DNA from: a virus | Strand: one strand, 5' to 3' | DNA length: 64,000 nt | Virus record (IMG/VR): IMGVR_UViG_3300016667_000188 | Location: 9,026-73,025 of that record | Shown here: piece after piece, positions 1,303 through 17,200 of the stretch | Position numbering within the stretch: the first letter of the stretch is position 1 | Layout: every line of letters begins with the position of its first letter | The notes under the pieces: model-generated | The model's input: the letters and a program-made list of their open reading frames with translations, nothing else | Databases searched by the model: none | What the model was told of the DNA's origin: nothing | Translations under genes and position numbers: made by a program

Positions 1303-1303
1303 A

Positions 1304-1528
1304 ATGGATTATCTAAAAGTTCAAGGACATGAAGGTTTAGTTCGAGACGTCTCGACAGGAGCCATCATTAACACAGATAAAACAGAATACGACAGGTATT
1401 TGGAAACCCGCCGAAAGGCGGAACAGCGTGAAAACACAATATCTCAACATACTCTTGAGATAAATAATATAAAGAATGAGTTACAAGACATAAAAAACCT
1501 ACTTGTACAACTCGTTAATAAAAGTTGA
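1304..1528 (+). CDS. hypothetical small protein (coiled-coil C-terminus)
   Basis: ORF 1289..1528. The first ATG after the upstream stop is at 1304. Product is K/E-rich. Confidence 0.35.
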   Translation: MDYLKVQGHEGLVRDVSTGAIINTDKTEYDRYLETRRKAEQRENTISQHTLEINNIKNELQDIKNLLVQLVNKS

Positions 1529-1542
1529 CAAAAGGATCATAA

Positions 1543-2742: not shown

Positions 2743-2743
2743 A

Positions 2744-3103
2744 ATGGGTATTGCTGCAACTGGATTTAAGATTTCCTCTGGCGCTGACTTAAATGGCGTT
2801 ATGTGGGGATATACTGGGGAAGTACGAAGAGATATTACTGAATCTGTTAACTGTACATTTAACTGCAATTGCCGTTGCGACGTTAACTGTAACTGTAACT
2901 GCGACCCTGCTGACTTGGCATTGAACGTATACTTGACCGATTATAGAATTGATGCGTTTAGAAACACCGCATATAACGACGGTATCCGTCCTGAAGTCCA
3001 AGACGGAACACCTTCTTTGGGTCTAACACGTTACTACAGAACAAACTGTAATTGTAACTGTAACTGTAACTGCCAGTGTCAGTGCAATTGCGCTTGTAAG
3101 TAA
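2744..3103 (+). CDS. Cys/Asn dipeptide-repeat protein (NCNCNC...; 27 Cys in 119 aa)
   Basis: Two blocks of CN/CQ/CR repeats (NCNCRCDVNCNCNCD and NCNCNCNCNCQCQCNCACK) flank a non-repetitive core. An RBS-like sequence lies upstream. The gene sits immediately downstream of a tail-fibre gene. Confidence 0.5.
   Translation: MGIAATGFKISSGADLNGVMWGYTGEVRRDITESVNCTFNCNCRCDVNCNCNCDPADLALNVYLTDYRIDAFRNTAYNDGIRPEVQDGTPSLGLTRYYRTNCNCNCNCNCQCQCNCACK
2849..2902 (+). repeat. tandem hexanucleotide repeat block 1, (AACTGY)-like x9, in-frame
   Basis: Nine consecutive 6-nt units of the form aactgt/aactgc/aattgc and similar, seen directly in the sequence. Confidence 0.8.
3044..3097 (+). repeat. tandem hexanucleotide repeat block 2, (AACTGY / CAGTGY) x9, in-frame
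   Basis: aactgt aattgt aactgt aactgt aactgc cagtgt cagtgc aattgc gcttgt. Confidence 0.8.
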
Positions 3104-3115
3104 TAGGAGACACAG

Positions 3116-3943
3116 ATGACAATGCTAAGAGTACAACCACTAGCCAATGTTAAGTACAAAGCTAAGTTTTATAAATTGGATGCAAATTCATTCAAAATTG
3201 ATCTGTCACTGGTAACTGGTGATGTTGACTGGGCTCCTATTGAGGGTGAAAAAGACCCAGAAGTTAAAACCCTAATTAGTACAGTGGTAGATAGCCGTGA
3301 GTATACAAAAACTGATTTTCCACTGCCAACCAGAGCACATCAGTTATACACTATTTTGCAAAAAGATGGTAAACTAACTGATATTATTGCTGTGTATGAT
3401 GTCACTCAAACAAGAAAAGAGAGTATCCCACAAAGAGAACACTCTGTTAGAAACGAGAATAATACTGTTGTTATGGGTATTTACAGCTGTGATCCAATTA
3501 ATGATGTTGATGTATTTAGCGATAATACTGTAATCGCTTTTTCAGACAGCATAGACGAGCCTTCTTTAGTTTCTGAATATGATGCTTCTTTATCTGAGGT
3601 GCTCGATACACCTATTATGAAGACTAGTGATGAGCAATACAGCCAATCCTTTATGGCTACTTATCCTAAAGTAACTATCACTTCTGCTGATACTGTTCAG
3701 GCTGGACAACCACTAGTTGTTACAGTTTCTATGGAAAAGGTTGTGAACAAATCCAATAAAATTGAAGTGTTTCTATACAATTCAATGGGTGTTTCGAATA
3801 AACAAAGAATATCTTTGGCAGATGGTGAATCTAGTGAGATCACTATTAACACTGAAGGATTGGTTGCTGGTGAAGAAATTATCTTCAAAGTCAATTTCTA
3901 TAACTACACAAGTTTTGCTAAGAAAACTATCGCCGTTGTATAA
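3116..3943 (+). CDS. hypothetical protein
   Basis: 275-aa ORF with an AGGAGA RBS immediately upstream. No motif recognised. Confidence 0.5.
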   Translation: MTMLRVQPLANVKYKAKFYKLDANSFKIDLSLVTGDVDWAPIEGEKDPEVKTLISTVVDSREYTKTDFPLPTRAHQLYTILQKDGKLTDIIAVYDVTQTRKESIPQREHSVRNENNTVVMGIYSCDPINDVDVFSDNTVIAFSDSIDEPSLVSEYDASLSEVLDTPIMKTSDEQYSQSFMATYPKVTITSADTVQAGQPLVVTVSMEKVVNKSNKIEVFLYNSMGVSNKQRISLADGESSEITINTEGLVAGEEIIFKVNFYNYTSFAKKTIAVV

Positions 3944-3963
3944 TTAACCAAACCTCCGCATAA

Positions 3964-3994
3964 ATACCTTAGTGGAAACGCTAAGGTATTTTTC
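3964..3994 (+). terminator. rho-independent terminator (9-bp stem ATACCTTAG/CTAAGGTAT plus U-run)
   Basis: Perfect inverted repeat 3964-3972 / 3981-3989 followed by ttttcatt. Overlaps an ATAAATA motif at 3960-3966. Confidence 0.6.
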
Positions 3995-4003
3995 ATTACA
4001 GTT

Positions 4004-4846
4004 ATGATTTTTCATCGTCTAGATAAGCAATACAAAGTTAACTATAGCATTAAACCTGCAAATAAAAGGCAGATTTATGAGTTTCAGATCAAACAAAATT
4101 TTAACCAAGACATTCTAAAGATATTATCTGAAAATTCACCACAAGGATTTAGAACAGCTGAAGGTGAGAATCGCTCATATAAATCGATCTCCCTTGTTTA
4201 TAATGATAAGATTGATGATGTAGATCCACTATACTCTACACTGGGTTCGAGTAAAATATCAAATTCAAAGCAATACTACGGTTCAAAAGAATTGTCAGAT
4301 TCATTGGGACTTAAAGAAAATTCTTATTATGACACATATGGATTCAATAAACGAACATCGGTAACTTATGTCGGCGAGTTTAAAGAATTCATCGATTCAT
4401 TTAAATGTTCTTTGATTCGATCAAGAATCTCCGTAATTCCTTCAAATGATATTAATGTAACCAAGTTCTCATATCTCTGGCATAGGGACGAAACTGTTTT
4501 TGAAAACCTTAGATTTAATATCCCAATTCAGACTGCAGATAATTATCTGTTCCAACTTGAAGATAAAATAATTCGACCATCACCGCAATCTCCAACTATG
4601 ATAACAAAGCATCTAGAGGTTGGTAAAGCATATTCTTGGGATACTAATAAACCCCATCGTGTGTTTGCGGATAAAGTTGGAATAATTGATCGGATTCATA
4701 TAGTTTTAGGTTTTAGTCCTTGGTTTGATTATCACCAAGAAACTGATTCTTGGACACCAAACGAATTTTTTAACAAAAAACACCCACATGATATGTTAAT
4801 TGATGGGGATGTAATTCCTTCTAAATACATAGAGTATCTTGGATAA
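4004..4846 (+). CDS. hypothetical protein, possibly Fe(II)/2OG-oxygenase-like (WHRDE ... HRVF)
   Basis: An HxD/E ... H arrangement (WHRDETVF, KPHRVFADK) is compatible with a cupin-type facial triad. Weak evidence. Confidence 0.35.
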   Translation: MIFHRLDKQYKVNYSIKPANKRQIYEFQIKQNFNQDILKILSENSPQGFRTAEGENRSYKSISLVYNDKIDDVDPLYSTLGSSKISNSKQYYGSKELSDSLGLKENSYYDTYGFNKRTSVTYVGEFKEFIDSFKCSLIRSRISVIPSNDINVTKFSYLWHRDETVFENLRFNIPIQTADNYLFQLEDKIIRPSPQSPTMITKHLEVGKAYSWDTNKPHRVFADKVGIIDRIHIVLGFSPWFDYHQETDSWTPNEFFNKKHPHDMLIDGDVIPSKYIEYLG

Positions 4847-4858
4847 CGGAGCCATATT

Positions 4859-5614
4859 ATGCGTATATCTCATAATCACGCAGTGAGATCTTTGCAGGTC
4901 TTAAATCACATTCTATTTGCCATCGGGTTGTGGTACGTATTCGCCACGGCATCATACTTTTTATTATTGGTGGCATTATTCACTTACTGGACTATTGGTA
5001 TTCTAGGAATTAATGTTGGATTACATCGCTTATTATCCCATAGATCATTTAAAACAAATCCAATAATCGAAAAGGTGTTATCTGTTATTGGAGTTTTAAC
5101 CACAGTGGGATCCCCATTAGCTTGGGTTGCTGTTCACCGACACCATCATCGTGCAGCTGATAGACCAAACGATGTACATTCACCATATCAATTAGGTTGG
5201 TGGCGTGCTTGGTTTGGCTTTTGGAATTATGATGGTATCGAGATGAAGCTCGTTAGAGATATGAGACGAGACGCATTTCAAAAAAATTGTCACAAGTATT
5301 ATTTCCACATAATCGCAGTATATTGTATAATTCTGGCACTAATTAACCCATGGTTGATTATATTTGCTTATTGTATTCCAGCTAGTTTATGTTTGCATTC
5401 TAGCTCTGCCATCATTGTTATTGCACATATCCATGGATATGTGAATCACGAGTTAAAACATGACCAAGCTAAAAACTCTTGGATTGCTAATTTAATAACA
5501 ATGGGTGAAGGATGGCATAACAATCACCATGCTAAACCCTATGCTTGGTCTAATTGGGAAAACTGGTGGGAGTGGGATATTCCTTCATTAGTCATTAGAG
5601 TTATTAAAACATGA
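4859..5614 (+). CDS. membrane fatty-acid desaturase (delta-9 acyl-lipid/acyl-CoA desaturase-like), copy 1
   Basis: Three histidine boxes HRLLSH, HRHHH and HNNHH in the canonical order, with hydrophobic TM stretches between them. Confidence 0.7.
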   Translation: MRISHNHAVRSLQVLNHILFAIGLWYVFATASYFLLLVALFTYWTIGILGINVGLHRLLSHRSFKTNPIIEKVLSVIGVLTTVGSPLAWVAVHRHHHRAADRPNDVHSPYQLGWWRAWFGFWNYDGIEMKLVRDMRRDAFQKNCHKYYFHIIAVYCIILALINPWLIIFAYCIPASLCLHSSSAIIVIAHIHGYVNHELKHDQAKNSWIANLITMGEGWHNNHHAKPYAWSNWENWWEWDIPSLVIRVIKT

Positions 5615-6369
5615 CATTCGGAAAAAACTTCTTTCTGGTTTTCTTACCATTACACATTCTTGGTATTGTTGGTCTTTACTTTGCTCCAAGCAATTTAATA
5701 ACTCTATTTGTTATTTGGTTTTTGATTGGGGTTATTGGTAATGGCGTGGCAGCGCATAGATATTTCGCCCATGGACAGTTCACTTGTTCAACACCAACCA
5801 AATGGGTATTAGGATTTCTTTCAACACTTGGTGGTATTGGTCCAATTAGCTATTGGATGATTCAACATAAAACACACCATATTAGAGCAGACAGCGAAAA
5901 TGATCCCCACTATACAGGTAAGGGGATTTGGTACACCATGTATTCTTGGACATTTCCGCAAGGAAATAATGAGAAACAATATATGAAAGAAAGATTCGCT
6001 AAAAGATTGGCAGTTCAAATCGCAAAAGATCCATTCTTATCTTTTTTTCACAAGTATCATTATTTTATCATATACAGTTTTTGTATAATTCTGGCTGTTA
6101 TTAACCCAGTATACTTGTTCCTATATGCACTAGCTTATTGCTTAGACTTTATGAGGCTAGGATTAGTTAATTACTTTTGCCATGGCACAGGCTATAGAAA
6201 CCATGAAACCCAAGACAAGTCAACAAATAACTTATTATTGGGTTTATTAGGAATGGGGTTTGGATGGCATAATAACCACCATGCATCTCCAGGGAAACTT
6301 ATATTAACTGAGAGATGGTGGGAAATTGATGTAGAAGGTTATCTTGGAAAACTGTTTAGTAAAATTTAA
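5611..6369 (+). CDS. membrane fatty-acid desaturase-like, copy 2 (tandem paralogue)
   Basis: His boxes HRYFAH, HKTHH and HNNHH. Paralogous to 4859..5614. Stop and start overlap (ATGA). Confidence 0.7.
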   Translation: MTFGKNFFLVFLPLHILGIVGLYFAPSNLITLFVIWFLIGVIGNGVAAHRYFAHGQFTCSTPTKWVLGFLSTLGGIGPISYWMIQHKTHHIRADSENDPHYTGKGIWYTMYSWTFPQGNNEKQYMKERFAKRLAVQIAKDPFLSFFHKYHYFIIYSFCIILAVINPVYLFLYALAYCLDFMRLGLVNYFCHGTGYRNHETQDKSTNNLLLGLLGMGFGWHNNHHASPGKLILTERWWEIDVEGYLGKLFSKI

Positions 6370-6986
6370 GAGTTTCCAACTTCCCATGTTTTAATTACTG
6401 TTTCCATATATTCATCACAATTTGGGTATTTGCGATACTCTTGTCTAAGTACCCAATTTACAATTACAATATCAGTTTTTGCTACTCTGTTATTAAATAT
6501 GTTTGATGAGAATAGATGATATTTCGATGATCTACCTTTTGGTACAATTTCTTCAATAAACAAATCATATCTTGATAGAATGTCACTTTTCATTCTATAT
6601 TTTGAGATTCTATAAGACAGCGGTCTGGCGTAATAAAATTGATGATATCCATTATCTTCCATATATTTTACTGAGTGTTCCATCAATTTAAATATACCAT
6701 TCTTATTCATCCAAAGAGATGATGGTCTTGAAGTAACATACGCCATATACCAAGAGTTTTGCCCCTGCAACTTAATGTTTAGGATTACGCTGTGTAATTT
6801 GTCTTCAATATAATAACCAAAGACGTTACCCTTATAATCAAATCTTAAACATTCAATAAAAGTCTCTAATAAATTTTCATTTAGAGATTCTTCTTTTATA
6901 ACTTTGGCTGATTTTTCTCTTAGATTAAGTATCTCTTCAATCTCTTTTTTATGTAAAAGGTTTAATTTTTTTATCTCCATAAACAC
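6366..6986 (-). CDS. hypothetical protein
   Basis: 206-aa minus-strand ORF. Start of an ORF string that opposes the flanking + genes. Confidence 0.45.
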   Translation of the reverse strand: MFMEIKKLNLLHKKEIEEILNLREKSAKVIKEESLNENLLETFIECLRFDYKGNVFGYYIEDKLHSVILNIKLQGQNSWYMAYVTSRPSSLWMNKNGIFKLMEHSVKYMEDNGYHQFYYARPLSYRISKYRMKSDILSRYDLFIEEIVPKGRSSKYHLFSSNIFNNRVAKTDIVIVNWVLRQEYRKYPNCDEYMETVIKTWEVGNS

Positions 6987-7756
6987 TCGTCCTTATATTT
7001 CTCAACACTGGATTCCAGCAATTTATATAAAGCGTCATTATTAAATTTTTTCCATCCTAAGAAAAAGATAATTCTATCACCAATTTCTTGATTGTGAGTT
7101 TCTACAGCATGAACTCCCCTGACGCTATTCAAAATGAATGGATATTTACCTGAGTTTCGTTTAACAATAAGTTTTTTACTAAAATCATATTGTTTTGATA
7201 AGTCAACCTTTTCTGTTTTTCCATCTGGTCTAACTTTCCAAGTTTGCACTCTTTCTTCTAGAGGTTCAAACGATGGGTGAAAATATAACTGAGCTCTTTC
7301 TTTTTTAGTTATGTAAAATCTAAACCCGAACCAATCTTCTGGGTCGCTATGTGGAAATACAGTCTTTTCTTGTTTTTGGGCTAATGCTTGCACTCCCCAT
7401 AAGTCATCTAAGTCTGCTGGGAATAATTTTATGTATTCTACAAGTTCTGGAAATCTTTTATCAAACCCATTCATCCAACCAATATTAACACCTGAATTGA
7501 CATATGGAAATGTTGTAATCCAAGGATATTCCTGCTGTTCAACTGATTTCACATTTCCAATAATTGGTAAACCTAGCTTATCAGCTGTACCTGTTTTAAT
7601 TAGAGTTTTGGTTGCGTTATTATCTGTTTCAATCATCCACTCAGTTAATCTTTTAATATCAACTTCTGGAGGTTCTGGTAAATCTAAAGGGCAGTAAATC
7701 AAATCTTTGAATTTACTCAAATGGTCCATGTCTAAAATTCTAATGTGTTTTTTCAT
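6971..7756 (-). CDS. hypothetical protein, HxD...H paralogue A (putative cupin/2OG-Fe(II) oxygenase-like)
   Basis: Paralogous to 7758..8441 (IYCPLDLPEPPEVDI vs IYTPLDLPTPPKVDI; FPHSDPEDWFGFRFY vs FPHSDHDKFFGLRYY). Conserved HSD ... GVHAV motif. Confidence 0.5.
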   Translation of the reverse strand: MKKHIRILDMDHLSKFKDLIYCPLDLPEPPEVDIKRLTEWMIETDNNATKTLIKTGTADKLGLPIIGNVKSVEQQEYPWITTFPYVNSGVNIGWMNGFDKRFPELVEYIKLFPADLDDLWGVQALAQKQEKTVFPHSDPEDWFGFRFYITKKERAQLYFHPSFEPLEERVQTWKVRPDGKTEKVDLSKQYDFSKKLIVKRNSGKYPFILNSVRGVHAVETHNQEIGDRIIFFLGWKKFNNDALYKLLESSVEKYKDECLWR

Positions 7757-7757
7757 A

Positions 7758-8441
7758 TTAATACCAAATTGCGTAGTCTTTGTATTTGTCAGTAGATCTT
7801 TTCAGTAGCGCAAGCATCTCATCCATCTTGTAACCTCCATTACTAGGTGAGGGTATCACTGAGATTCTATCGCCAAATGTGCCTGGTTTAGCATCTACTC
7901 CGTGTAGTGCTCTAATGTTATTTAAAAACCAAGCATGAGGGTAAGGTAGTTGTTTTGGATGGATTTTAACTTTGTCAGTAATCTCAATAAGTTTTTTACC
8001 TTCTTTAAATTTATCTGGAACATCTTCAAGGCGTTCTTTTGTTTTCATAAAATAAAGCCCAGTGTCTTGTTCAGAGAAGTTTAGATAGTATCTAAGTCCA
8101 AAAAATTTATCATGATCACTATGTGGGAATACTGTTTCAGTTGCATACTGCACAGTAAAGATATAAGATCCAGGGTTTACTGGAAAATTAAAGTAGTAGT
8201 CATATATCTCTGGAAATTCTTTTCGTAGGTTGTTCGTCAGATAGTTGTTTTTATCTGCCATATCAACGGTGACATTCAGCCATGGATATTTGATACCCAT
8301 CTTTGCCACTTGGATTTCGTTGGAATAAATAACTTTTTTGTTGTGTTTCATCCAGTCAACAAATGACGGGATGTCAACTTTTGGTGGCGTTGGTAAATCT
8401 AATGGAGTGTAGATTATATCTTTCGCAGAATCCATGTCCAT
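7758..8441 (-). CDS. hypothetical protein, HxD...H paralogue B
   Basis: See 6971..7756. Tandem duplication on the minus strand. Confidence 0.5.
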   Translation of the reverse strand: MDMDSAKDIIYTPLDLPTPPKVDIPSFVDWMKHNKKVIYSNEIQVAKMGIKYPWLNVTVDMADKNNYLTNNLRKEFPEIYDYYFNFPVNPGSYIFTVQYATETVFPHSDHDKFFGLRYYLNFSEQDTGLYFMKTKERLEDVPDKFKEGKKLIEITDKVKIHPKQLPYPHAWFLNNIRALHGVDAKPGTFGDRISVIPSPSNGGYKMDEMLALLKRSTDKYKDYAIWY

Positions 8442-8488
8442 GATAACTCCTAAATAGTTCAGTATGAATGTATTTATAAAGGTAAACT

Positions 8489-9916
8489 ATGAAATATAAA
8501 TTGATTTTACAAGGGTCTAATGATGTGAAACAAGTCATGATGTATGACCCAATGACTTCTGAAGTGTTTTGGGAAGAGACTGGCGAACGACCATCTCTAG
8601 AGCATATTGGCAAAGACGCTGTTTACAAGATTGAAGAGCAGAACTGGATTGCTGCTAAAGTCACTAATCCAAAAGACCCAGAGCTTCATGGGCGAAAAAG
8701 TAAAAAAGTTTCTACACTAAAGATCACGATGGGTCTTAAGTGTAACTTTGCTTGTTCTTATTGCAACCAAGCGCATCAACCACATGATCCAGTTGGTGGT
8801 CCTGAAGATGCTGAAGCGTTGATCCAAAGTATCAAAAAGAATCTAACAGTTGATCCTATAGATCCTATCAGAATCGAGTTCTGGGGTGGAGAGCCATTTG
8901 TTTATTGGAAAACTCTAAAGCCACTAGCTGAAAAGGTTAGACGAGCATATCCGATGGCAACATTCAACATTATCACTAATGGTTCTTTGCTAGATCGCCA
9001 TAAAGTTGATTGGTTGTATCGAATGAACTTTAATGTTGGTATCTCTCACGATGGACCACTACACGCCCAAAATCGTGGTCCAGATCCACTAGATGATTTA
9101 ACTATGAGAGATGGAATCATCTATGCACTTAAGAAATTGGGACCAAATAGAGTTGGGTTTAACTCAGTTCTCACGAAAGAAAATGTCTCATTGGTAGCTG
9201 TTAAGCAGTTTATTTCTAAGAAATTGAACGGCGCAATCCCAGACGATCATATTATCGTCAATACAGAAGAACTCTTACTACCATACGATGCCTCTGGATT
9301 AACTCACTCTATTTCAAACTCAGATGAGGCTAAAGAGGCTATCCATAGTGTTTTCTGGGAGACTATTACTGGCGCAAATTACTTTAGCAATACAGTAACG
9401 CAAAAGGTTAAAAACTTCTTTTCTTCTATTTCTGAACAGCGCCCAGCAAAAATTCTAGGACAGAAATGCGGTATGGATCGTGAGGATATCTTAGCGATCG
9501 ATATGAAGGGTAATGCAACAACTTGCCAAAATACATCTTCTTTAACGAAACACAATATCGGTAATATTGAAGATGTAGATGCTATCCGTCTGCATACATC
9601 ACATCACTGGAGCACACGTGAGGAATGTCCTAATTGCCCAGTACTGCAACTTTGTATGGGTTCTTGCTTGTTCTTAGAAGATGATCTCTGGAAAGCTGGA
9701 TGTGAAAATATGTTCACGTGGAACTTGGCATTGCTTGCCGCAGCTTTGTTTATTATGACAGACGGTCTAGTGCTCGTTGAAATACAGGGACAGAAGATCC
9801 GCTATGACGACGTAACCTCTGTCCCTGTAATTGACATTGAATTTGTCAAGAGCAACGGAACTAAAAAGTCCTGGAAGGTTAGAAAACCTGTAGGAATTCC
9901 TGTTGTAGCTGCTTAA
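8489..9916 (+). CDS. radical SAM enzyme with SPASM-type C-terminal Cys cluster (peptide/protein-modifying maturase-like)
   Basis: CNFACSYC (CxxxCxxC) at about residue 86. Distal cluster CQNTSS...CPNCPVLQLCMGSC. About 85-aa N-terminal and about 100-aa C-terminal extensions. Confidence 0.75.
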   Translation: MKYKLILQGSNDVKQVMMYDPMTSEVFWEETGERPSLEHIGKDAVYKIEEQNWIAAKVTNPKDPELHGRKSKKVSTLKITMGLKCNFACSYCNQAHQPHDPVGGPEDAEALIQSIKKNLTVDPIDPIRIEFWGGEPFVYWKTLKPLAEKVRRAYPMATFNIITNGSLLDRHKVDWLYRMNFNVGISHDGPLHAQNRGPDPLDDLTMRDGIIYALKKLGPNRVGFNSVLTKENVSLVAVKQFISKKLNGAIPDDHIIVNTEELLLPYDASGLTHSISNSDEAKEAIHSVFWETITGANYFSNTVTQKVKNFFSSISEQRPAKILGQKCGMDREDILAIDMKGNATTCQNTSSLTKHNIGNIEDVDAIRLHTSHHWSTREECPNCPVLQLCMGSCLFLEDDLWKAGCENMFTWNLALLAAALFIMTDGLVLVEIQGQKIRYDDVTSVPVIDIEFVKSNGTKKSWKVRKPVGIPVVAA

Positions 9917-10515
9917 TTAACGAACCCAACCAAGACGTTAAGTAAAACATAACTTCCTTGGTTGAGGTTTGTTTCGGTATATCTGACTAGATGTCCTGGA
10001 GTTGCCAAAACTTCATTTTCTTTGGCAGATAGACCGTAAGAGCAGTTTACTAAGTTTTGATTGGTCAATGTTCTTACTGCTTGGATTCCACCTCGTGGAT
10101 CAATAAAATAAGTGAACGGTGTTCTTTCTGGGTTCGCTAGAACGAAGGTTAGAACAGCGGGAGCGAACTCATAAGAGTGGGCTGGAATGTGTTCTAATTG
10201 TTGTTGAAATAAGGTTTGAGACTTAATGATTCGAGGAAAGGATTCTTCGAAACCGAACCCATTCAAATGGGAACAAATGCTGAATACTTCTTCTTTAAAC
10301 TCGTCAACTGCTGGGTCTTCATAGTCGAACAATTCGCCAGAATAACCTTCTTCAAACATTTTATTTATCAAAGCCAATAATTTTTCGTTTAGCTCAGACG
10401 GATTGCTTCGTTCTATAACAGCTAATTTAGTTGGAAAAAGGTCTTTCTCCAAGGTTACTTTGTGTGGTGTAAGATCTTTTTGATCTTGAGTTTCAGAATT
10501 TTGGTCGTTTGACAT
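9913..10515 (-). CDS. hypothetical protein (acidic)
   Basis: 200-aa minus-strand ORF convergent with the rSAM gene. Confidence 0.45.
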   Translation of the reverse strand: MSNDQNSETQDQKDLTPHKVTLEKDLFPTKLAVIERSNPSELNEKLLALINKMFEEGYSGELFDYEDPAVDEFKEEVFSICSHLNGFGFEESFPRIIKSQTLFQQQLEHIPAHSYEFAPAVLTFVLANPERTPFTYFIDPRGGIQAVRTLTNQNLVNCSYGLSAKENEVLATPGHLVRYTETNLNQGSYVLLNVLVGFVN

Positions 10516-10634
10516 ATTATCTCCATTAAAATTAAAAATCGCTTCGCAGCTAATAAGTATTTATACATCACCTATCCTACAAAATCCCTTCGTTTATAAA
10601 TAAGAAGTATAAAAATAGTTTTTCGGGGAATTGG

Positions 10635-10970
10635 ATGGCAACTGTTAGTAACCTTTTTGTTGACGCTGGTGCTAGTTATAGCAACATTATTTCAGTTGCA
10701 GCGACCAACGGTCAACCTCTAAATTTAACAGGGTATAGCGTGGCTTCTCAGATGAGAAAGTCATATCAGTCCAGCACAGCCTATAACTTTACTGCATCTG
10801 TGTTCAACGCAGAACAAGGTAAAGTTCGTCTACAACTAACTCCCCAACAATCAGAGGCTATCCCTGCTGGAAGATGGCTTTATGATGTAGAAATAACTTC
10901 ACCTTCTGGCTCTAAAACTAGAGTTGTTGAAGGTATCGTAACAGTAAATCCTCAGATTACCCAAATTTAA
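10635..10970 (+). CDS. hypothetical virion protein
   Basis: 111-aa ORF with RBS. Precedes the fibre genes. Confidence 0.45.
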   Translation: MATVSNLFVDAGASYSNIISVAATNGQPLNLTGYSVASQMRKSYQSSTAYNFTASVFNAEQGKVRLQLTPQQSEAIPAGRWLYDVEITSPSGSKTRVVEGIVTVNPQITQI

Positions 10971-10971
10971 A

Positions 10972-11223
10972 ATGTCTGATACAATTGCTATTGTACAATC
11001 CGATGAAGCTCTTCAGGTCGCAGTATCCGAAGGTGTTCTTACACTTGCGTCATCAACCGTGTCCAATCCAGCAGTAGTAGAATCTCTTGATAGCGTCGCA
11101 GACGTAGATACAACTACTAATGGTAAGATAGATGGGTCGATTTTAGTATACAGAACAGTAACAAATAGATGGACTTCCACAACTACGCTTGATGCGCAGA
11201 ATATGGAAGGCGGCGAATTTTAA
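10972..11223 (+). CDS. hypothetical protein
   Basis: 83-aa ORF tightly packed (TAAAATG) with its neighbours. Confidence 0.4.
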   Translation: MSDTIAIVQSDEALQVAVSEGVLTLASSTVSNPAVVESLDSVADVDTTTNGKIDGSILVYRTVTNRWTSTTTLDAQNMEGGEF

Positions 11224-11235
11224 CGGAGAACATAG

Positions 11236-13617
11236 ATGGCTTCTATTATTAGAATTAAACGTTCTAGCACATCTGGCAACCCAGCAACGCTGGGCGCTGG
11301 TGAGTTAGCGTACTCAGCATTAGCTGACAATGGATCAAACGGCGGTGATCGTTTATACATTGGTATGGGCACAGAGACTGCAGGTAATGCAGTCAACCAC
11401 GTTATCATCGGTGGTAAATACTACACTGGTTTAGTAGACGCTGGTGGATCTGGTGGTACACTTAATACTTCTGCTAAGTCTATTCCAGTTCTTTCTGCAA
11501 CTGGTTCTATCGACAAGTGGTTAGTTGGTAATTTACAACTAACTGGTAGCACTCTTTCTTCTACTAATACCAACGGTGATATTAACATCACTCCTAATGG
11601 TACTGGTAAGACTATCATCAGCAACCTATACACAGACGCAACTACTAGCCTGACTGAGTTCATCCAGGACGTTGCTGGCGGGGGTATCGTTGACTCTGAT
11701 GAGATTGACGCAACATACGATGACGAAGCTGGTACTACATCATTAGCACTTAAGACCACAGGTGTAACAGCAGGTTCTTACGGTTCCGCAACTGCTATCC
11801 CAACATTCACTGTTGATAGTAAAGGTCGTTTGACTGCAGCTGGATCTGTTTCTGTTGCAACAACACTGAACCTAACAGGTGACACTGGTTCTGATGGCAT
11901 TTCTCTGCTAACAGAAACTCTAGCTATCGTTGGTGGTGAGGGTATCGATACTGCTATTACAGCAAATACTCTAACAATCTCTGCAGAAGATGCAAGCACT
12001 ACTAACAAGGGTGTCGCTTCTTTTGACACAGCTAACTTTACTGTAACTGCTGGTGCTGTCTCTGCGAAGACAATCACTCTTGGTTCTTCTACCCTAGCCC
12101 TTGGTTCTACAACTACTGGTCTTGCTGGTCTTTCATCTCTTGGTGTAACTGGTAATGCTACTGTTGGTGGAACACTAAATGTCACTGGTGCGACTACTTT
12201 AAGCAGCACATTAGGTGTAACTGGTAATACAACCCTAGGTGGAACATTAGGCGTTACTGGTGCAACTACTCTAAGTTCTACACTTGGTGTTGCAGGTGAC
12301 TTTGCTGTTAATACTAACAAATTCACAGTTGCTGCTACTTCTGGTAACACTAGCGTTGGTGGTACATTAAGTGTTACTGGAAACAGCACTCTTGCTGGTA
12401 CACTAGCAGTAACAAATGATTTTAGCGTTAATACCAACAAGTTTAACGTCGCAGCTTCTACTGGTAATACATCTATCGCTGGCACTCTTGGTGTAACAGG
12501 AGCAGCTACTCTATCCAGCACATTAGATGTGACTGGTAACCTTTCTGTTAACAGTAACAAATTCACAGTTGCAGCTGGTTCTGGTAACACCGCTATTGCA
12601 GGAACATTGGCAGTAACTGGTGCTGCTACATTTAGCTCTGCCGTGAATATGAGTGGTCAGAAGATCACTAACTTGGCAGAACCAACTGCTGACTCAGATG
12701 CTGCTACAAAGTACTACGTTGACGCTGCTCGCTCTGGTCTTGATATCAAGAACTCTGTTAAAGCTGCTACAACTGGTAACATCACTCTTTCTGGCACACA
12801 GGTTATTGACGGTGTAACTCTGTCTGTTGGTGATCGTGTTCTTGTTAAAGATCAAAGCACTGCTTCTCAAAACGGTATTTACGTTGTTGCTGCTGGCGCA
12901 TGGTCTCGTTCTACTGATGCTGACGCTCCAGCAGAACTAAACCCAGGAACTTTCGTATTCGTTGAACAAGGTACTGTTAACGATAACACTGGTTTCGTTG
13001 TTGTTTCTGATAGCGTTGTTACTATCGGCACTGATGCGATTAACTGGACATTGTTCTCTGCTTCTGGCACTCTAATTGCTGGTGCTGGTCTTATCAAGAA
13101 CGGTTACACTCTAGAAGCACAAGTTGGTAACGGTGTTACAATTGCAAGTGATACAATTCAACTAGCTTCCACTGTTGCTGGCGCTGGTTTGACATTCACT
13201 TCTGGTGTCTTGGATATCGTTGGAACAGCTAACCGTATCACCGTAAACGCTGACAGTATCGATATCGCATCTACTTACGTGGGTCAGTCTTCTATCACTA
13301 CTCTAGGTACTATTACTACTGGTACTTGGAACGGTTCTGTCATCGCTGATGCCTACATCAACGATGCATTGACTATCTCTGGTGGTACTATCAATAACAC
13401 ACCAATTGGTGCTACTACTCGTTCTACTGGTGCGTTTACGACTCTTGCTGCTAACGGTGCTGCTACACTAACATCTACATTAGCAGTTTCTGGTGCAACT
13501 ACTCTTAGCTCTACTTTAGCGGTAACAGGAAACATTACTGCTTCTGCTAACTTGACAGGCGCTGGTGCTTCTACTTCTACTATCGATGGTTTCACTATCG
13601 ATGGTGGAACTTATTAA
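11236..13617 (+). CDS. tail fibre protein (793 aa) with 19-aa GTLGVTGATTLSSTLGVTG-type repeats
   Basis: Tandem degenerate repeats. Carries the SVGDRVLVKDQ...QNGIYVV module shared with the 14248 gene. G/T/A/S-rich. Confidence 0.7.
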   Translation: MASIIRIKRSSTSGNPATLGAGELAYSALADNGSNGGDRLYIGMGTETAGNAVNHVIIGGKYYTGLVDAGGSGGTLNTSAKSIPVLSATGSIDKWLVGNLQLTGSTLSSTNTNGDINITPNGTGKTIISNLYTDATTSLTEFIQDVAGGGIVDSDEIDATYDDEAGTTSLALKTTGVTAGSYGSATAIPTFTVDSKGRLTAAGSVSVATTLNLTGDTGSDGISLLTETLAIVGGEGIDTAITANTLTISAEDASTTNKGVASFDTANFTVTAGAVSAKTITLGSSTLALGSTTTGLAGLSSLGVTGNATVGGTLNVTGATTLSSTLGVTGNTTLGGTLGVTGATTLSSTLGVAGDFAVNTNKFTVAATSGNTSVGGTLSVTGNSTLAGTLAVTNDFSVNTNKFNVAASTGNTSIAGTLGVTGAATLSSTLDVTGNLSVNSNKFTVAAGSGNTAIAGTLAVTGAATFSSAVNMSGQKITNLAEPTADSDAATKYYVDAARSGLDIKNSVKAATTGNITLSGTQVIDGVTLSVGDRVLVKDQSTASQNGIYVVAAGAWSRSTDADAPAELNPGTFVFVEQGTVNDNTGFVVVSDSVVTIGTDAINWTLFSASGTLIAGAGLIKNGYTLEAQVGNGVTIASDTIQLASTVAGAGLTFTSGVLDIVGTANRITVNADSIDIASTYVGQSSITTLGTITTGTWNGSVIADAYINDALTISGGTINNTPIGATTRSTGAFTTLAANGAATLTSTLAVSGATTLSSTLAVTGNITASANLTGAGASTSTIDGFTIDGGTY

Positions 13618-14247: not shown

Positions 14248-17200
14248 ATGCCAACACAAATTCAATTAAGACGTGGTACTTACGACCAACACAAAACATT
14301 CACTGGCGCTAACGCCGAGCCGACTTTTGATACGTCAAATAGAGTAATGAGACTTCACGATGGCACTACTCCAGGTGGTAGTGAAATCGTTATGGGTAAT
14401 ACTCTTTACAAGAGTTTACCTGTTAGAGTTATCTCTACTTCTAACATCACGCTGGCTGGCGTGCAGACTGTTGATGGTGTTTCTCTATCTGTTGGTGATC
14501 GTGTTCTAGTTGCTGGACAGACTGATCAGTCTAAGAACGGTATCTACACTGTTGTAGATCTACCAGGAACTTGGGTTCGTGCTTTCGATTTTGATAAGAT
14601 TTATAACATTCAAAAAGGAATGTTTGTTTATGTAGCAGAAGGTTCTACACATAATGAAACTGTTTGGAAGTTAACTTCACAACCAACAACTCTAGATTTA
14701 CACGCAATCACTTTTGAAAAATGGCTTGGTGTAGAAACACGTGGTCTAGCTCAAAACACTGTAGCAGGTATGGTGGTTCGCCAGTCTAAAGGCACATTTA
14801 CTAGCCGAGCAATTACCGTTTCTGGTCAAGGTATTACCGTCACTAACGGCGATGGTATTTCTGGCAACCCTCTACTGTCTCTTAACTCTACCCCAAACAA
14901 CACAGTTAACGCTATTATGGCTCGTGATGCCAATGGCGATTTTGCTGCAAATAATGCAACTCTGGCTGGAGATATCGCAGTTAATGGTGGTGATGTAACT
15001 ACTACATCAACAACTGCTACTCTATTCAATACCAATGCTACTACCCTGAACATTGGTAACGCAGCTACTACTGTTTCTATTGGTGCCGCTACTGGCACTA
15101 CTACGGTTCGTAATGACTTGGTTGTTAACGGAACGTTCACAGTCAACGGTACTACTGAAACGATCAATGCAGTTACGGTTACAGTAGACGACAAGAACAT
15201 TGAGTTGGGCTCAGTTGCATCACCAACTAATACTACAGCTGACGGTGGTGGTATCACTCTGAAAGGTACTACTGATAAGACTATCATTTGGCTGAACTCT
15301 AATAATTCTTGGAATTCTTCTGAAGACTTTAGTGTTGCTACTGGTAAAGTGTTTGAAGTTAACGGTGTTCCAGTATTGACTGCGAACTCTGTTCTAAATG
15401 ATGCGACTCAAACATCTATCACTGTTGGCGGTTCTGCGTCAACGATCACCATGGGTGCTTCGGGTGGTACTACAACTCTACGCTCTGGTACTCTGGTTGG
15501 TTCAGACGCAACTCAGAACGTATACAACACTGTTGCTACAACTGTTAATGCCTTCGGTGCAGCTACATCACTAAACATCGGTACTACATCTACTGGTGCA
15601 CAAACCACAAATATTGGAACTGGCGCAACTGCTAGCGCAACAACCAAGACTCTAAACTTGGCTACTGGCGGTTTGACTGGTTCTACAACTAACGTAAACG
15701 TTGGTTCTACTGCTGGCGGTTTGTTGACTATCAACAACCCTAACGTATCGTTTAACAACGGCATCGTATCGTTCACTAATACAACTGACGCAACAACATC
15801 AGCCGACGGTTCTGTTCGTTTTGCTGGTGGTATTAGCGTTGTTAAAAATATCGTATGTGATGGAACTTTCTCTATCTTCGGTGACATCTCTGTCAACGGT
15901 GGAGACATCTTAACTAACCAGACAAACGTAACTGTATTTAATACTACTGCTACAACAGCTAACTTGCTTGGTGCTGCTAGCACTATCGCTATGGGTGCTT
16001 CTGGTGGTACTACAACTCTACGTTCTGGTACTCTGGTTGGTAGCGATACTACTCAAAACCTATACAATACAGTTGCCACTACTCTAAACATTGGTGGAGC
16101 CGCAACAACTATCAACTTGGGTAACGCAACAGCGGCAACTCTGTTGACTCGTCCTGGTACTATCGTCGGTTCTAACACTACTCAATCTGTTTACGATACA
16201 GTTGCCACTACTGTTAACGCATTCGGTGCAGCAACAACTCTGACACTGGGTAATGCAACTCTTGCTACACTGACTCTGCGTCCTGGTACTATCGTCGGTG
16301 CAAATACTACTCAAAACCTTTTCAATACTGTTGCAACTACTGTTAACTTCGCTGGCGCTGCAACTGCTTTGAGTATTGGTGCTGCTACTGGTACTACTAC
16401 TGTCAACAATAACCTGTCTGTTGCTGGAACTTCTAGTCATACTGGCAACTCAACATTCTCTGGTACTGTTGGTATCACTGGTGCTACAACTCTTTCTAGC
16501 ACTCTGGGTGTTGCGGGTGACTTCTCTGTTGCAACTAACAAGTTTACTGTGGCTTCTGCCTCTGGTAACACTGCTATCGCTGGTACACTAGGTGTAACTG
16601 GTGCAGCTACTCTAAGTTCTACTCTTGCAGTAACTGGTGCCTCTACTTTCACTGGCGCTACTACCCACAACGGTGGTTTGACTGCTGCTTCTTCTAGCAT
16701 CACTGGCAACCAGACTGTTGGTGGTACTCTTGGTGTTACTGGCGCTACAACTCTTTCTAGCACTTTGGGTGTTACTGGTGCAACAACTATCGGCGGTAAC
16801 GTAGCGGTAAACGGTGGTAGCTTGACTACTACTCAGACTACGTTCAACCTAGTCAACGCAACTGCTACTACTCTAAACATTGGCGGTGCAGCTACTACAG
16901 TTTCTATTGGTGCAGCAACTGGTACTACTACTGTTAATAACAACTTGGTTGTTACTGGTAACCTAACAATCTCTGGTACTACTACAACAATCAACGCAAC
17001 TACTTTGGATGTTGCTGACCTTAACATTACTGTCGCTAAGAATGCTGCTACTGCAGCTGCTGCTAATGGCGCAGGTCTGACTGTTGCTGGCGCTAACGCC
17101 ACTATCCTTTACGCTTCTACTGGCGATCGTTGGGAACTGAACAAGCCGCTATATGTGGCAGGTACTGGCTCTATTACTGGCAACACTACTGTTGGTGGTA

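What the first reader, a model, noticed from the sequence alone, without database searches (positions are those of the whole stretch)
8489..9916. Phage radical-SAM/SPASM enzyme with long N- and C-terminal extensions, a candidate peptide maturase
The CxxxCxxC box sits unusually far in, at about residue 86, behind an 85-aa N-terminal domain that could be an RRE-like recognition domain. A SPASM-like cluster (CPNCPVLQLCMGSC) follows, and then another 100 aa or so. SPASM enzymes typically install thioether or C-C crosslinks or Cys modifications on Cys-rich peptides or proteins. A striking Cys-rich candidate substrate (2744..3103) lies 5 kb upstream in the same island. No substrate link can be proven from sequence.
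Basis: inference. Interest (0 to 1): 0.75.

Follow-up and report, generated by a model that had tools for sequence, protein, structure and literature searches.

The report
Radical-SAM maturase for phage tail-fibre tips
This phage gene encodes an iron-sulfur "radical SAM" enzyme that, across hundreds of phages and prophages, is always paired with a tail-fibre tip protein ending in an alternating Asn-Cys tract (…NCNCNCNC), so phages probably chemically cross-link the tip of the fibre they use to recognise hosts, which has not been described before.

Summary
ORF 8489..9916 (+) encodes a 475-aa radical SAM/SPASM enzyme with C85x3C89x2C92 and a complete 7-Cys SPASM motif. It has exactly 10 Cys, and all 10 are conserved.

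- Of 118 homologous loci with at least 4 kb upstream, 93 carry a strict (C-x)≥4-C tract on the same strand, 0.8–5.3 kb upstream. Another 22 carry shorter NCxCNC versions.
- Only 2 unrelated hits occur in 2.1 Mb × 6 frames.
- A tract-first DNA search recovers the enzyme family.
- Among 80 loci fetched through the neighbouring fibre gene, 28 have both tract and enzyme, 43 have neither, and none has the enzyme alone.

The tract (consensus F-N-C-[YR]-[TS]-N-C-N-C-N-C-[NAD]-C…) sits at the extreme C-terminus of several differently built tail-fibre tips, or directly before a self-cleaving Hint domain.

The predicted fold (pLDDT 91) is closest to CteB, ChlB, TigE and anSME. The N-terminal domain is not a canonical RRE.

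The best reading is a RiPP-like maturase that acts on a virion protein, probably installing Cys-to-Asn/Ala/Asp thioethers as NxxcB, PapB and QhpD do. The chemistry is inferred, not shown. I found no prior description. It is a new variant of a known kind, and interest is high.

The parts
8489..9916 (+). Radical SAM/SPASM enzyme, 475 aa, the proposed maturase. Residues 1-76 form a family-specific beta-rich N-terminal domain. The radical SAM box is C85/C89/C92. The SPASM Cys are C327, C346, C380, C383, C389, C393 and C405. The conserved C-terminal strands are 428-446.
   Evidence: phrog_1802, E 1e-62; pLDDT 91
2744..3103 (+). 119-aa Cys/Asn-rich tail-fibre tip protein, the proposed substrate. It is homologous to the C-terminal tip domain that is fused to fibre shafts in other phages.
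   Evidence: (48% identity to L003_8467_8835)
3044..3097 (+). C-terminal alternating Asn-Cys tract NCNCNCNCNCQCQCNCAC (residues 101-118), the proposed site of modification.
2861..2902 (+). Internal NCNCRC / NCNCNC segments of the tip protein. The Cys positions are conserved in the clade.
3116..3943 (+). 'Partner A', 275 aa. Its C-terminus GLVAGEEIIFKVNFYNYTS matches the GLxxGDxxxVKAGF motif of the family found directly after the tract-bearing gene in most loci (clusters c2/c25/c83). Its role is unknown; it could be a fibre chaperone or an adhesin.
   Evidence: (c2~c25 93%, c2~c83 98.8%)
4004..4846 (+). 280-aa protein of cluster c12 with invariant H160, D162, H218 and R230, a putative Fe(II)/2OG oxygenase. 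It is homologous to RSP15 ORF046, which lies directly upstream of the rSAM there.
   Evidence: No Pfam or PDB hit.
4859..6369 (+). Two paralogous fatty-acid-desaturase-like membrane di-iron proteins (4859..5614 and 5611..6369). They travel with the cassette in L067 and L082.
   Evidence: (PF00487, 57.9 and 55.1 bits against a gathering score of 29.7)
6366..6986 (-). 206-aa protein of unknown function that travels with the extended cassette (L011 and L067 at 34% identity, L082 weakly).
6971..8441 (-). Two paralogs of cluster c59 (6971..7756 and 7758..8441) with invariant H107, D109, H180 and R192, putative Fe(II)/2OG oxygenases. They also occur in L011, L067 and L082.
   Evidence: No Pfam or PDB hit.
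9913..10515 (-). 200-aa protein of cluster c26, related by profile to the 2OG-FeII_Oxy_5-like clusters c4 and c11. These are the commonest accessory genes beside the rSAM in other loci.
   Evidence: (c4~c26 96.9%, c4~c11 99.2%)
1543..2742 (+). Tail fibre, 399 aa, with a C-terminal S74-type self-cleaving chaperone. It lies immediately upstream of the tip protein. In relatives its first ~270 residues are joined directly to an NCxCNC terminus instead.
   Evidence: (Peptidase_S74 in the L003 ortholog)
10635..10970 (+). 111-aa tail-fibre-assembly-like protein (phrog_1084 / phrog_3304). A homolog lies directly downstream of the rSAM in the Ralstonia prophage L007.

Best explanation
The ORF encodes a radical SAM/SPASM maturase whose substrate is a virion protein. 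That substrate is the alternating Asn-Cys tract (F-N-C-[YR]-[TS]-N-C-N-C-N-C-[N/A/D]-C…) at the C-terminal tip of a tail fibre. In this phage the tract is carried on a separate 119-aa tip protein (2744..3103).

Proposed mechanism:
1. The tip protein is made late in infection.
2. The enzyme docks on it, possibly through its family-specific beta-sheet N-terminal domain.
3. A tract Cys thiolate binds the one iron of the SPASM clusters that has no protein Cys ligand. The enzyme has 7 auxiliary Cys for 8 positions, like CteB.
4. The 5'-deoxyadenosyl radical removes an H atom from the beta (or alpha) carbon of a nearby Asn, Ala or Asp. 'NCNC' embeds the N-x-x-C register used by NxxcB.
5. A C-S thioether forms, and the step repeats along the tract to give a ladder of 3-10 cross-links.

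The result would be a rigid tip without free thiols, resistant to oxidation and proteases, for the receptor-binding end of the fibre. The neighbouring putative oxygenases may add further modifications.

Shown here: the enzyme class, the tract, their near-obligate genomic coupling, and the tail-fibre context. Inferred: that the tract is the substrate (I put this at about 0.85), and that the chemistry is thioether formation (about 0.55 given the first).
For: Enzyme class:
- The radical SAM and SPASM models score above their cutoffs.
- The 7-Cys SPASM motif is invariant in 63 homologs, and the protein has no other Cys.
- The best HMM hit is the PapB ranthipeptide maturase model.

Coupling to the tract:
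- A strict tract is present on the same strand, 761-5335 nt upstream (median 1518), in 93 of 118 loci with at least 4 kb upstream. Only 2 unrelated hits occur in 2.11 Mb × 6 frames.
- 22 of the other 25 loci carry shorter NCxCNC termini.
- Tract-first search: 43 loci found only through (AAYTGY)5 carry the enzyme family 19-3701 nt downstream, including relatives of only 28-41% identity.
- Presence/absence among 80 loci fetched through the fibre gene: both 28, neither 43, enzyme only 0. Of 9 tract-only loci, 8 are contigs ending 78-1041 nt after the tract. Fisher p = 4e-14.

The tract as a portable tag:
- It ends several differently built fibre tips.
- It lies within 5 aa of the C-terminus in 81 of 102 proteins. 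In 13 it is followed directly by a Hint self-cleavage domain.
- Some loci have several tract-ending proteins, like multi-precursor RiPP clusters.

Tail-fibre identity of the substrate:
- Phage_T7_tail plus collagen repeats, Shufflon_N, the JWF and RSP15 annotations, and the PHROG fibre hits flanking the island.

Chemistry:
- NxxcB makes a Cys-to-Asn beta-thioether and tolerates Ala, Gln and Asp as acceptors (PMC9389541). N, A, D and Q make up 96% of the x positions in the tract.
- CteB's SPASM domain has one cluster with an open site that binds a substrate Cys. QhpD makes Cys-Asp/Glu thioethers in a protein (PMC8326336).
Against: - No biochemical data exist. Co-occurrence shows functional linkage, not which residue is modified.
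- The closest solved relatives catalyse different reactions: thioether (CteB), cyclopropane (TigE) and formylglycine (anSME). Homology does not fix the chemistry.
- All scores against characterised maturase families are far below their cutoffs, for example PapB at 75 against 340.
- In this window the enzyme is 5 kb from the tip gene, separated by genes on the opposite strand, so the two are not co-transcribed here.
- Three loci (L050, L115, L121) have the enzyme but no recognisable tract. Two of them lie beside an ABC exporter rather than tail genes.
- RSP15 has only a minimal terminus (…NTNCQCGN).
- Many accessory genes look like O2-dependent oxygenases, which is an unusual pairing with an O2-sensitive enzyme.
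- The tip protein could not be modelled (pLDDT 38).
Confidence: 0.55

Rival explanations
1. The substrate is the same Asn-Cys tract on the fibre tip, but the chemistry is different. Options include epimerisation of alternate residues to D-amino acids (giving a beta-helix-like rod), oxidation of Cys to formylglycine or a dehydro residue, C-C cross-links, and inter-chain links that staple the fibre trimer.
Against: Cys-rich substrates of SPASM enzymes characterised so far mostly receive thioethers (PMC8326336). The acceptor-like residues N/A/D/Q match NxxcB's tolerance. Having 7 rather than 8 auxiliary Cys argues for direct thiolate binding as in CteB, and against an anSME-type fully ligated site. 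The anSME target motif C/S-x-P/A-x-R is absent from the tract.
Confidence: 0.28
2. The tract is not the substrate. It is a metal- or Fe-S-binding or disulfide-forming fibre tip, analogous to the HxH iron sites of the T4 gp37 needle. The enzyme modifies something else that happens to be linked to such fibres, such as partner A, another fibre residue, or a host envelope molecule.
For: Alternating Cys could line a trimeric metal-binding core (analogy recalled from memory, not tested here). Partner A is also widely conserved next to the tract gene, in 61-76% of loci as a lower bound. In this window the enzyme is not co-transcribed with the tip gene.
Against: The tract is the only feature shared by fibre tips that otherwise look unrelated and that accompany the enzyme. 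In several lineages the enzyme gene starts 19-211 nt after a small tract-ending protein with no partner A at all. Wherever assessable, enzyme and tract are gained and lost together.
Confidence: 0.08
3. The 119-aa protein is the precursor of a free, secreted RiPP (a phage-encoded bacteriocin or toxin) rather than a virion component. The enzyme would then be an ordinary RiPP maturase carried as a moron.
For: In the window's clade the tract protein is small and separate (119-133 aa). Two bacterial homologs (L115, L121) sit beside an ABC transporter and an HlyD-like protein, the usual RiPP export partners. Some loci have several small tract-ending proteins.
Against: No protease or exporter gene is present in the window's island. 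In most lineages the same domain and tract are fused to fibre shafts 300-730 aa long, with T7-tail-fibre N-termini and collagen repeats. The small protein is homologous to those tip domains and directly follows a fibre gene. The cassette sits inside tail modules in myo-, sipho- and Ackermann-like genomes.
Confidence: 0.06
4. The enzyme is an auxiliary metabolic gene unrelated to the virion, for example an anaerobic sulfatase maturase as some records annotate it, or a nucleotide-modifying or antiviral-type rSAM.
Against: The anSME equivalog scores 61 bits against a cutoff of 349. No sulfatase is nearby. There are 7 rather than 8 auxiliary Cys. QueE, viperin and activases match only the core. 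The gene is fixed in tail-fibre modules and coupled to the tract.
Confidence: 0.03

Closest known systems
Ranthipeptide and sactipeptide synthases (CteB, PapB, NxxcB; RS-SPASM RiPP maturases)
   Different: Identity to CteB is only 14-17%, and scores are far below the family cutoffs. There is no winged-helix RRE. The target is the C-terminal end of a large structural virion protein, not a leader-core peptide. No leader protease or exporter is present. The tract is a continuous alternating repeat, which would give overlapping rings not seen in known ranthipeptides.
QhpD (thioether-forming rSAM/SPASM acting on the gamma subunit of quinohemoprotein amine dehydrogenase)
   Same: It is a SPASM enzyme that cross-links Cys to Asp/Glu side-chain carbons within a protein rather than a RiPP (PMC8326336). 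The QhpD model matches the query from residue 20, so part of the N-terminal region is included.
   Different: The score is 56.8 bits against a cutoff of 453. The substrate, setting (periplasmic enzyme subunit versus phage fibre) and tract architecture are all different.
anSME (anaerobic sulfatase maturating enzyme)
   Different: anSME has 8 auxiliary Cys with fully ligated clusters and targets C/S-x-P/A-x-R. Here there are 7 Cys, no such motif, no sulfatase nearby, and a score of 61 against 349 bits.
TigE (cyclopropylglycine synthase acting on repeated TIGSVS motifs)
   Same: It is the closest PDB relative by sequence profile (E 4.7e-18) and a top fold match. It acts repeatedly along a repeat-motif substrate.
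   Different: TigE forms C-C bonds on Val methyl groups. The phage tract has no Val and is Cys-rich.
Self-processing and metal-stabilised fibre tips (S74 intramolecular chaperone, Hint autocleavage, T4 gp37 HxH iron needle) and autocatalytic HK97 capsid cross-links
   Same: These are devices that stabilise or mature virion proteins. S74 and Hint domains occur in the same fibres here.
   Different: They are autocatalytic or use metal coordination (recalled from general knowledge). The present system uses a dedicated, separately encoded radical enzyme that is not part of the virion.

Membership tests
Radical SAM superfamily | CxxxCxxC box that binds the SAM-cleaving [4Fe-4S] cluster, and a partial TIM-barrel core | tested here: met
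   C85x3C89x2C92 is invariant. Pfam PF04055 scores 33.6 bits against a gathering score of 29.5. The AF2 core superposes on many rSAM structures.
SPASM subfamily | C-terminal 7-Cys motif (C…Gx4C…Cx2Cx5Cx3C…C) for two auxiliary [4Fe-4S] clusters | tested here: met
   C327, G341x4C346, C380x2C383x5C389x3C393 and C405 are all invariant. TIGR04085 scores 35.6 bits against a cutoff of 27.
RiPP maturases with an RRE | N-terminal PqqD-like winged-helix recognition element (three strands plus three helices) | tested here: not met
   No PqqD/RRE hit in Pfam or NCBIfam. The AF2 N-terminus (pLDDT 89-97) has strands 3-8, 14-20 and 25-28, then coil to residue 76, with no helices.
PapB-type ranthipeptide maturases (NF047865) | Score at or above the equivalog cutoff; Cx3D/E-type precursor; S-C(beta/gamma) thioether product | tested here: not met
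   74.9 bits against a cutoff of 340. The precursor motif differs. The product cannot be tested with these tools.
Anaerobic sulfatase maturase (TIGR03942) | Score at or above the cutoff; 8 auxiliary Cys; C/S-x-P/A-x-R target on a sulfatase | tested here: not met
   61 bits against 349.45. Only 7 auxiliary Cys. No sulfatase or target motif in 160 neighbourhoods.
QhpD (TIGR03906) | Score at or above the cutoff; linkage to the qhpA/B/C genes | tested here: not met
   56.8 bits against 453. No qhp genes nearby.
RiPP system (in the broad sense) | A ribosomal precursor genetically linked to its modifying enzyme | tested here: met
   Linkage between tract and enzyme holds in both search directions and in the presence/absence test.
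RiPP system (in the broad sense) | Leader/core organisation with proteolytic release of a small product | tested here: inconclusive
   There is no protease or exporter in the window. The core-like tract stays on a fibre protein. Hint or S74 self-cleavage occurs next to it in some lineages.
Thioether-cross-linked product (sactionine or ranthionine) | A covalent Cys S-C(alpha/beta/gamma) bond, seen as -2 Da per link and loss of a free thiol | not testable with these tools
   This needs mass spectrometry or NMR of the co-expressed or virion-derived protein.

The most novel reading that the evidence does not exclude
Many phages of freshwater and soil Proteobacteria carry a 'virion RiPP'. A dedicated radical SAM/SPASM enzyme, often with a second rSAM and Fe(II)/2OG-type oxygenases, converts a portable C-terminal (Asn-Cys)n tag on the receptor-binding fibre tip into a ladder of overlapping thioether rings. 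This cross-link topology is not known from any RiPP, and it would be the first enzyme-installed covalent cross-linking of a phage tail fibre. In some lineages a Hint domain then cleaves itself off to expose the modified end.
Probability: 0.4. Interest if true: 0.9.

Novelty: new variant of a known kind. Interest (0 to 1): 0.8.

Why it matters
- **Phage biology.** Tail-fibre tips decide which hosts a phage can infect. They are thought to mature by folding, chaperones, self-cleavage or metal binding. A separately encoded radical enzyme that chemically modifies the tip would be a new layer of virion maturation. It would matter for host-range engineering and for producing such phages or their fibres in heterologous hosts, which would need the enzyme and Fe-S support.
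- **RiPP and radical SAM enzymology.** It offers a large, untouched family: more than 579 IMG/VR stretches and 172 GTDB species genomes. The substrate motif is very simple and repetitive, the substrate is a protein rather than a peptide, and there is no canonical RRE.
- **Testability.** The system is present in cultured phages (Achromobacter phage JWF and 2-1, Ralstonia phage RSP15) and in prophages of cultured strains (Burkholderia paludis MSh1, Ralstonia pickettii, Limnohabitans spp.).

Tried and rejected
- **Near-identity DNA search of the region against GenBank phages.** No match, so the source phage is uncultured.
- **Word-indexed protein searches.** The tip protein gave 4 hits and partner A gave 2, too few for profiles. 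I used the 160+ fetched loci instead.
- **AlphaFold of the tip protein with 5 sequences.** pLDDT was 37.7, so the model is unusable and no fold search was run on it.
- **phmmer of the 76-aa N-terminal domain against 1.84 billion representatives.** It found only 4 hits from the same clade, so it says nothing about other contexts.
- **Profile searches of the putative oxygenase families c12, c59 and c26 against PDB sequences.** Nothing significant. Their assignment rests only on invariant HxD…H…R residues, and for c26 on hhalign links to families like 2OG-FeII_Oxy_5.
- **NCBIfam and Pfam on tip proteins, partner A, c12, c17 and c59.** No family hits.
- **Promoter and terminator scan of 1..11500.** Counts equal those of shuffled sequence.
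- **Greedy gene calling in high-GC loci.** It often picked antisense ORFs, so the cluster frequencies are lower bounds. Cluster c0 merged the main and the second rSAM, so I recounted the second one by tblastn.
- **Search for a small precursor in the two non-phage loci L115 and L121.** No convincing candidate.
- **Literature.** Nine full-text searches found nothing on an rSAM/SPASM enzyme linked to tail fibres or on (NC)n tracts. The papers that matched the terms were unrelated.
- **Rejected idea: the tract is an N-glycosylation sequon (N-x-C).** The register does not fit an alternating N-C pattern.
Full report
**1. The observation**

- It carries the radical SAM box C85-x3-C89-x2-C92 and the SPASM box C380-x2-C383-x5-C389-x3-C393.
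- Pfam Radical_SAM and the NCBIfam SPASM domain model both score above their curated cutoffs.
- The protein belongs to PHROG 1802, 'radical SAM domain-containing protein', at E 1e-62.
- It has exactly ten cysteines: three for the SAM cluster and seven in the canonical SPASM arrangement (C327, G341x4C346, C380, C383, C389, C393, C405). All ten are invariant in an alignment of 63 homologs.
- The N-terminal ~76 residues and a C-terminal stretch of ~50 residues beyond the SPASM domain are conserved across the family.

The Cys-rich ORF at 2744..3103 is also real. It encodes 119 aa with 16 Cys and 16 Asn, and ends in NCNCNCNCNCQCQCNCAC-K.

**2. The source genome**

The 64-kb window comes from an uncultured large myovirus. 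It encodes a tail sheath, portal, major head protein and large terminase, and has no near match in GenBank phages. The island between 2.7 and 10.5 kb lies among tail-fibre genes:
- 52..1302 is the end of a giant DUF4815-type structural protein.
- 1543..2742 is a fibre with an S74-type self-cleaving chaperone.
- 11236..13617 and 14248..18564 are further fibres.

**3. The enzyme family lives in tail modules**

The closest cultured relatives are Achromobacter phage JWF gp030 (40% identity) and Ralstonia phage RSP15 ORF045 (38%). Both lie inside tail-fibre modules.

The large protein database holds many full-length homologs from phage contigs and prophages. Their contexts are again tail modules. 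Examples are a position between the tape-measure and tip proteins in a siphovirus-like contig, and a position after a fibre gene in a Ralstonia pickettii prophage.

I fetched 80 loci from IMG/VR, where at least 579 matching stretches exist, and 80 from GTDB genomes, where 172 exist. The GTDB hits are mostly prophages of freshwater and soil Alpha- and Betaproteobacteria.

**4. The key result: an Asn-Cys tract always accompanies the enzyme**

Reading the neighbours showed the same odd motif at the C-terminus of fibre-like proteins in very distant loci. I tested the association in three ways.

*Starting from the enzyme.* A strict motif, (C-x) at least four times then C, lies on the same strand 761-5335 nt upstream of the enzyme (median 1518 nt).
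- It is present in 93 of 118 loci with at least 4 kb upstream, and in 18 of 19 loci with 2-4 kb upstream.
- Elsewhere in 2.11 Mb read in six frames there are six hits. Four are the antisense reading of the same repeat, which leaves two unrelated hits.
- Of the 25 loci without a strict hit, 22 carry shorter versions such as …NCRTNCNCNCACCGCC, …YNCNCNCDCC, …FNCNCNCK and, in RSP15, …SNTNCQCGN.
- That gives about 97% overall.

*Starting from the tract.* I scanned IMG/VR for DNA encoding NCNCNCNCNC.
- The scan returned 106 new loci. In 43 of them a member of the enzyme family lies 19-3701 nt downstream on the same strand.
- These include relatives of only 28-41% identity that start 19-211 nt after small tract-ending proteins.
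- The hits without an enzyme fall into two groups. Some are tiny AT-rich frames of 26-104 aa, many in giant-virus bins, which are plain microsatellites. The others are contigs that stop too close to the tract to be assessed.

*Presence and absence.* I fetched 80 loci through homology to the neighbouring fibre (1543..2742), independently of both the enzyme and the tract.
- 28 loci have both, 43 have neither, and none has the enzyme alone.
- Nine have the tract alone. Eight of these are contigs that end 78-1041 nt after the tract gene, and one is a spurious antisense ORF.
- Fisher's exact p is 4e-14 even when all nine are counted as discordant.

**5. Anatomy of the tract and its carriers**

Across 111 distinct tracts the consensus is F-N-C-[YR]-[TS]-N-C-N-C-N-C-[N/A/D]-C-…, with 4 to 11 Cys (median 7). 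The first two x positions are Asn in 95% of tracts. Overall the x positions are N 58%, A 22%, D 14% and Q 2%, which is 96% N/A/D/Q. Synonymous codons are mixed, and perfect hexamer runs are rare (2 of 106), so selection acts on the protein.

The carriers are genuine tail fibres:
- One has a T7-tail-fibre N-terminus, collagen repeats and a CBM.
- Others carry Shufflon_N-type fibre segments.

The tract ends several differently built tip domains, so it behaves as a portable C-terminal tag.
- It lies within 5 residues of the stop codon in 81 of 102 carriers.
- In 13 carriers it is followed directly by C-[FV]-P-[AE]-G-T-x-V-x-M-A-D-G…, the start of a Hint self-cleaving domain.
- In JWF gp028 Pfam places Hom_end_hint (47.5 bits against a gathering score of 32.1) from residue 308, exactly where the tract (297-308) ends. 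After self-cleavage the tract would again be the mature C-terminus.

In the window's clade the tip domain is a separate 119-133 aa protein encoded right after an S74 fibre. In relatives, the first ~270 residues of that fibre are joined directly to an NCxCNC end instead. Some loci encode two or three consecutive small tract-ending proteins, like RiPP clusters with several precursors.

**6. Other cassette members**

- **Partner A.** A ~250-370 aa protein usually follows the tract gene. Its C-terminus carries GLxxGDxxxVKAGF. The window's copy is 3116..3943 (clusters c2, c25 and c83, linked by hhalign). Unrelated proteins (c17, c70) replace it in some lineages. It is absent from the minimal systems, so it is not essential for the pairing.
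- **Accessory genes between partner A and the enzyme.** These vary from locus to locus. They include proteins like 2OG-FeII_Oxy_5 and 2OG-FeII_Oxy_3 (c4, c11, c49; the window's 9913..10515 is the related c26). A second, smaller rSAM/SPASM gene is present in at least 21 of 146 loci.
- **The c12 family.** The window's copy is 4004..4846, and RSP15 ORF046 is a homolog. It has invariant H160, D162, H218 and R230.
- **The window's extended set.** It comprises c12, two desaturase-like membrane proteins (4859..6369), a 206-aa unknown (6366..6986), and two c59 paralogs (6971..8441; invariant H107, D109, H180, R192). The same set recurs in L067, and also in the distant L082, whose enzyme is only 39% identical and whose fibre differs. 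The set therefore travels with the cassette. The functions of these genes are inferred from motifs only. No Pfam or PDB match was found for c12 or c59.

**7. The enzyme's structure**

AlphaFold2 with 63 sequences gives pLDDT 91 and pTM 0.91.
- Foldseek ranks CteB first (E 1.5e-12), then TigE, anSME, ChlB and SuiB.
- Viperin (13.8), QueE (10.5) and PFL activase (10.2) match only the shared core.
- By sequence profile the closest solved chains are TigE, anSME and CteB.

The N-terminal domain consists of three strands (3-8, 14-20, 25-28) followed by well-ordered coil, with no helices. It is therefore not the winged-helix RRE of CteB or SkfB. It could still bind a substrate strand by sheet extension, which is an inference. 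The second, smaller rSAM lacks this domain.

**8. How it most likely works**

*Shown:* the enzyme class, the tract, their coupling, and the fibre-tip location.

*Inferred:* the tract is the substrate (about 0.85), and the reaction is thioether formation (about 0.55 given the first). The reasons for thioethers are:
[quoted passage not shown] 'NCNC' is the shortest N-x-x-C, and N/A/D/Q are the residues found at the x positions.
- CteB, the best structural match, has one SPASM cluster with an open iron that binds a substrate Cys (PMC8326336). The phage enzyme has seven rather than eight auxiliary Cys, and no spare Cys.
- QhpD shows that such enzymes can cross-link Cys to Asp/Glu inside a protein.
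- PapB is the best HMM hit.

A ladder of irreversible thioethers would remove free thiols from an extracellular particle that lives in oxic water, and would stiffen the receptor-binding end.

The main rival keeps the same substrate but proposes other chemistry: epimerisation of alternate residues, formylglycine, C-C links or inter-chain links. The nearest solved relatives do different reactions. TigE, for instance, makes cyclopropylglycine on a repeat motif. A second rSAM is also often present.

**9. Exceptions and limits**

- Three loci have the enzyme without a recognisable tract. Two of them (L115 Sulfuritalea and L121 Sulfuricella) place it beside an ABC transporter and an HlyD-like protein. 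That looks like a classical bacterial RiPP export cluster, and I could not find its precursor.
- In the window itself the enzyme is 5 kb from the tip gene, with three genes on the opposite strand in between.
- The tip protein could not be modelled.
- All homology to characterised maturases is far below the family cutoffs.
- Nothing here measures a mass or a bond.

**10. Novelty and score**

No curated family (NCBIfam, Pfam, PHROG name) describes this pairing, and none of nine full-text literature searches found it.

The enzyme kind is known. The substrate class (a portable (Asn-Cys)n tag on tail-fibre tips), the setting (virion maturation), the missing RRE and the possible overlapping-ring topology are new. 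I rate it a new variant of a known kind, with interest 0.8.

The most novel reading not excluded is a 'virion RiPP' with a thioether ladder on the receptor-binding tip. I put its probability at 0.4 and its interest if true at 0.9.

Noticed in passing
L001 (Achromobacter phage JWF) 5715..7166; also L024, L032, L035, L085, L117, L120, L122, L124, L127, L128, L141, L157: In 13 fibre proteins the Asn-Cys tract is followed directly by a Hint (intein-like) domain starting C-[FV]-P-[AE]-G-T-x-V-x-M-A-D-G. In JWF gp028, Pfam Hom_end_hint begins at residue 308, right after the tract. Self-cleavage would expose the tract as the mature C-terminus, possibly through a thioester.
   Followed up: partly
window 4004..8441 and 9913..10515: The island holds three proteins with an invariant HxD…H…R pattern (4004..4846, 6971..7756, 7758..8441), two fatty-acid-desaturase-like membrane proteins (4859..5614, 5611..6369), a 206-aa unknown (6366..6986) and a 2OG-FeII_Oxy_5-like protein (9913..10515). 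The same set recurs in L067 and in the distant L082, so it travels with the cassette. What the desaturase-like proteins do in a fibre-maturation cassette is unexplained.
   Followed up: partly
L007 9009..10016, L022 6977..7984, and 19 further loci: A second, smaller rSAM/SPASM gene (335-343 aa) lies directly upstream of the main enzyme in at least 21 of 146 loci. It has no N-terminal domain and its best HMM hit is also PapB. This suggests two radical steps in those lineages.
   Followed up: partly
L115 (Sulfuritalea MAG) 3584..9344; L121 (Sulfuricella MAG) 5774..9362: Two bacterial homologs of the enzyme (42% identity) sit next to an ABC transporter and, in L115, an HlyD-like protein rather than tail genes. 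This looks like a RiPP export cluster. No Asn-Cys precursor was found.
   Followed up: partly
L198 2048..2972; L204 2093..3172: Some loci encode two or three consecutive small proteins (80-107 aa) that each end in an NC tract (…NNCNCNCNCNC, …SPNCNCNCNC, …CYNCNCACNC) ahead of one rSAM gene, like RiPP clusters with multiple precursors.
   Followed up: no
L003 11473..13890 (and orthologs in L010, L012-L018, L084): In the window's closest relatives the enzyme is followed by a 104-aa protein, a DctP-like solute-binding protein (Pfam PF03480) and a 359-aa protein with an SGGIDST motif typical of PP-loop ATPases. These genes are absent from the window. Their roles are unknown.
   Followed up: no
window 11236..13617 and 14248..18564: The two large downstream fibre genes share repeated segments with each other (53% identity over 170 aa) and with the S74 fibre 1543..2742. 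This indicates a mosaic fibre gene set.
   Followed up: no
L169, L188, L189, L197, L199, L222, L226, L232, L238, L244 (giant-virus bins in IMG/VR): The hexamer (AAYTGY)n also occurs as a plain AT-rich microsatellite in giant-virus contigs. It falls in tiny open frames with no rSAM nearby and is unrelated to the phage system.
   Followed up: partly
L043 9332..10531 and cluster c30 (11 or more loci, e.g. L061, L066, L148): A 344-400 aa protein family with no Pfam hit lies just before or after the enzyme in the Ferrovibrio-type and some other loci. It is another uncharacterised accessory gene of the cassette.
   Followed up: no
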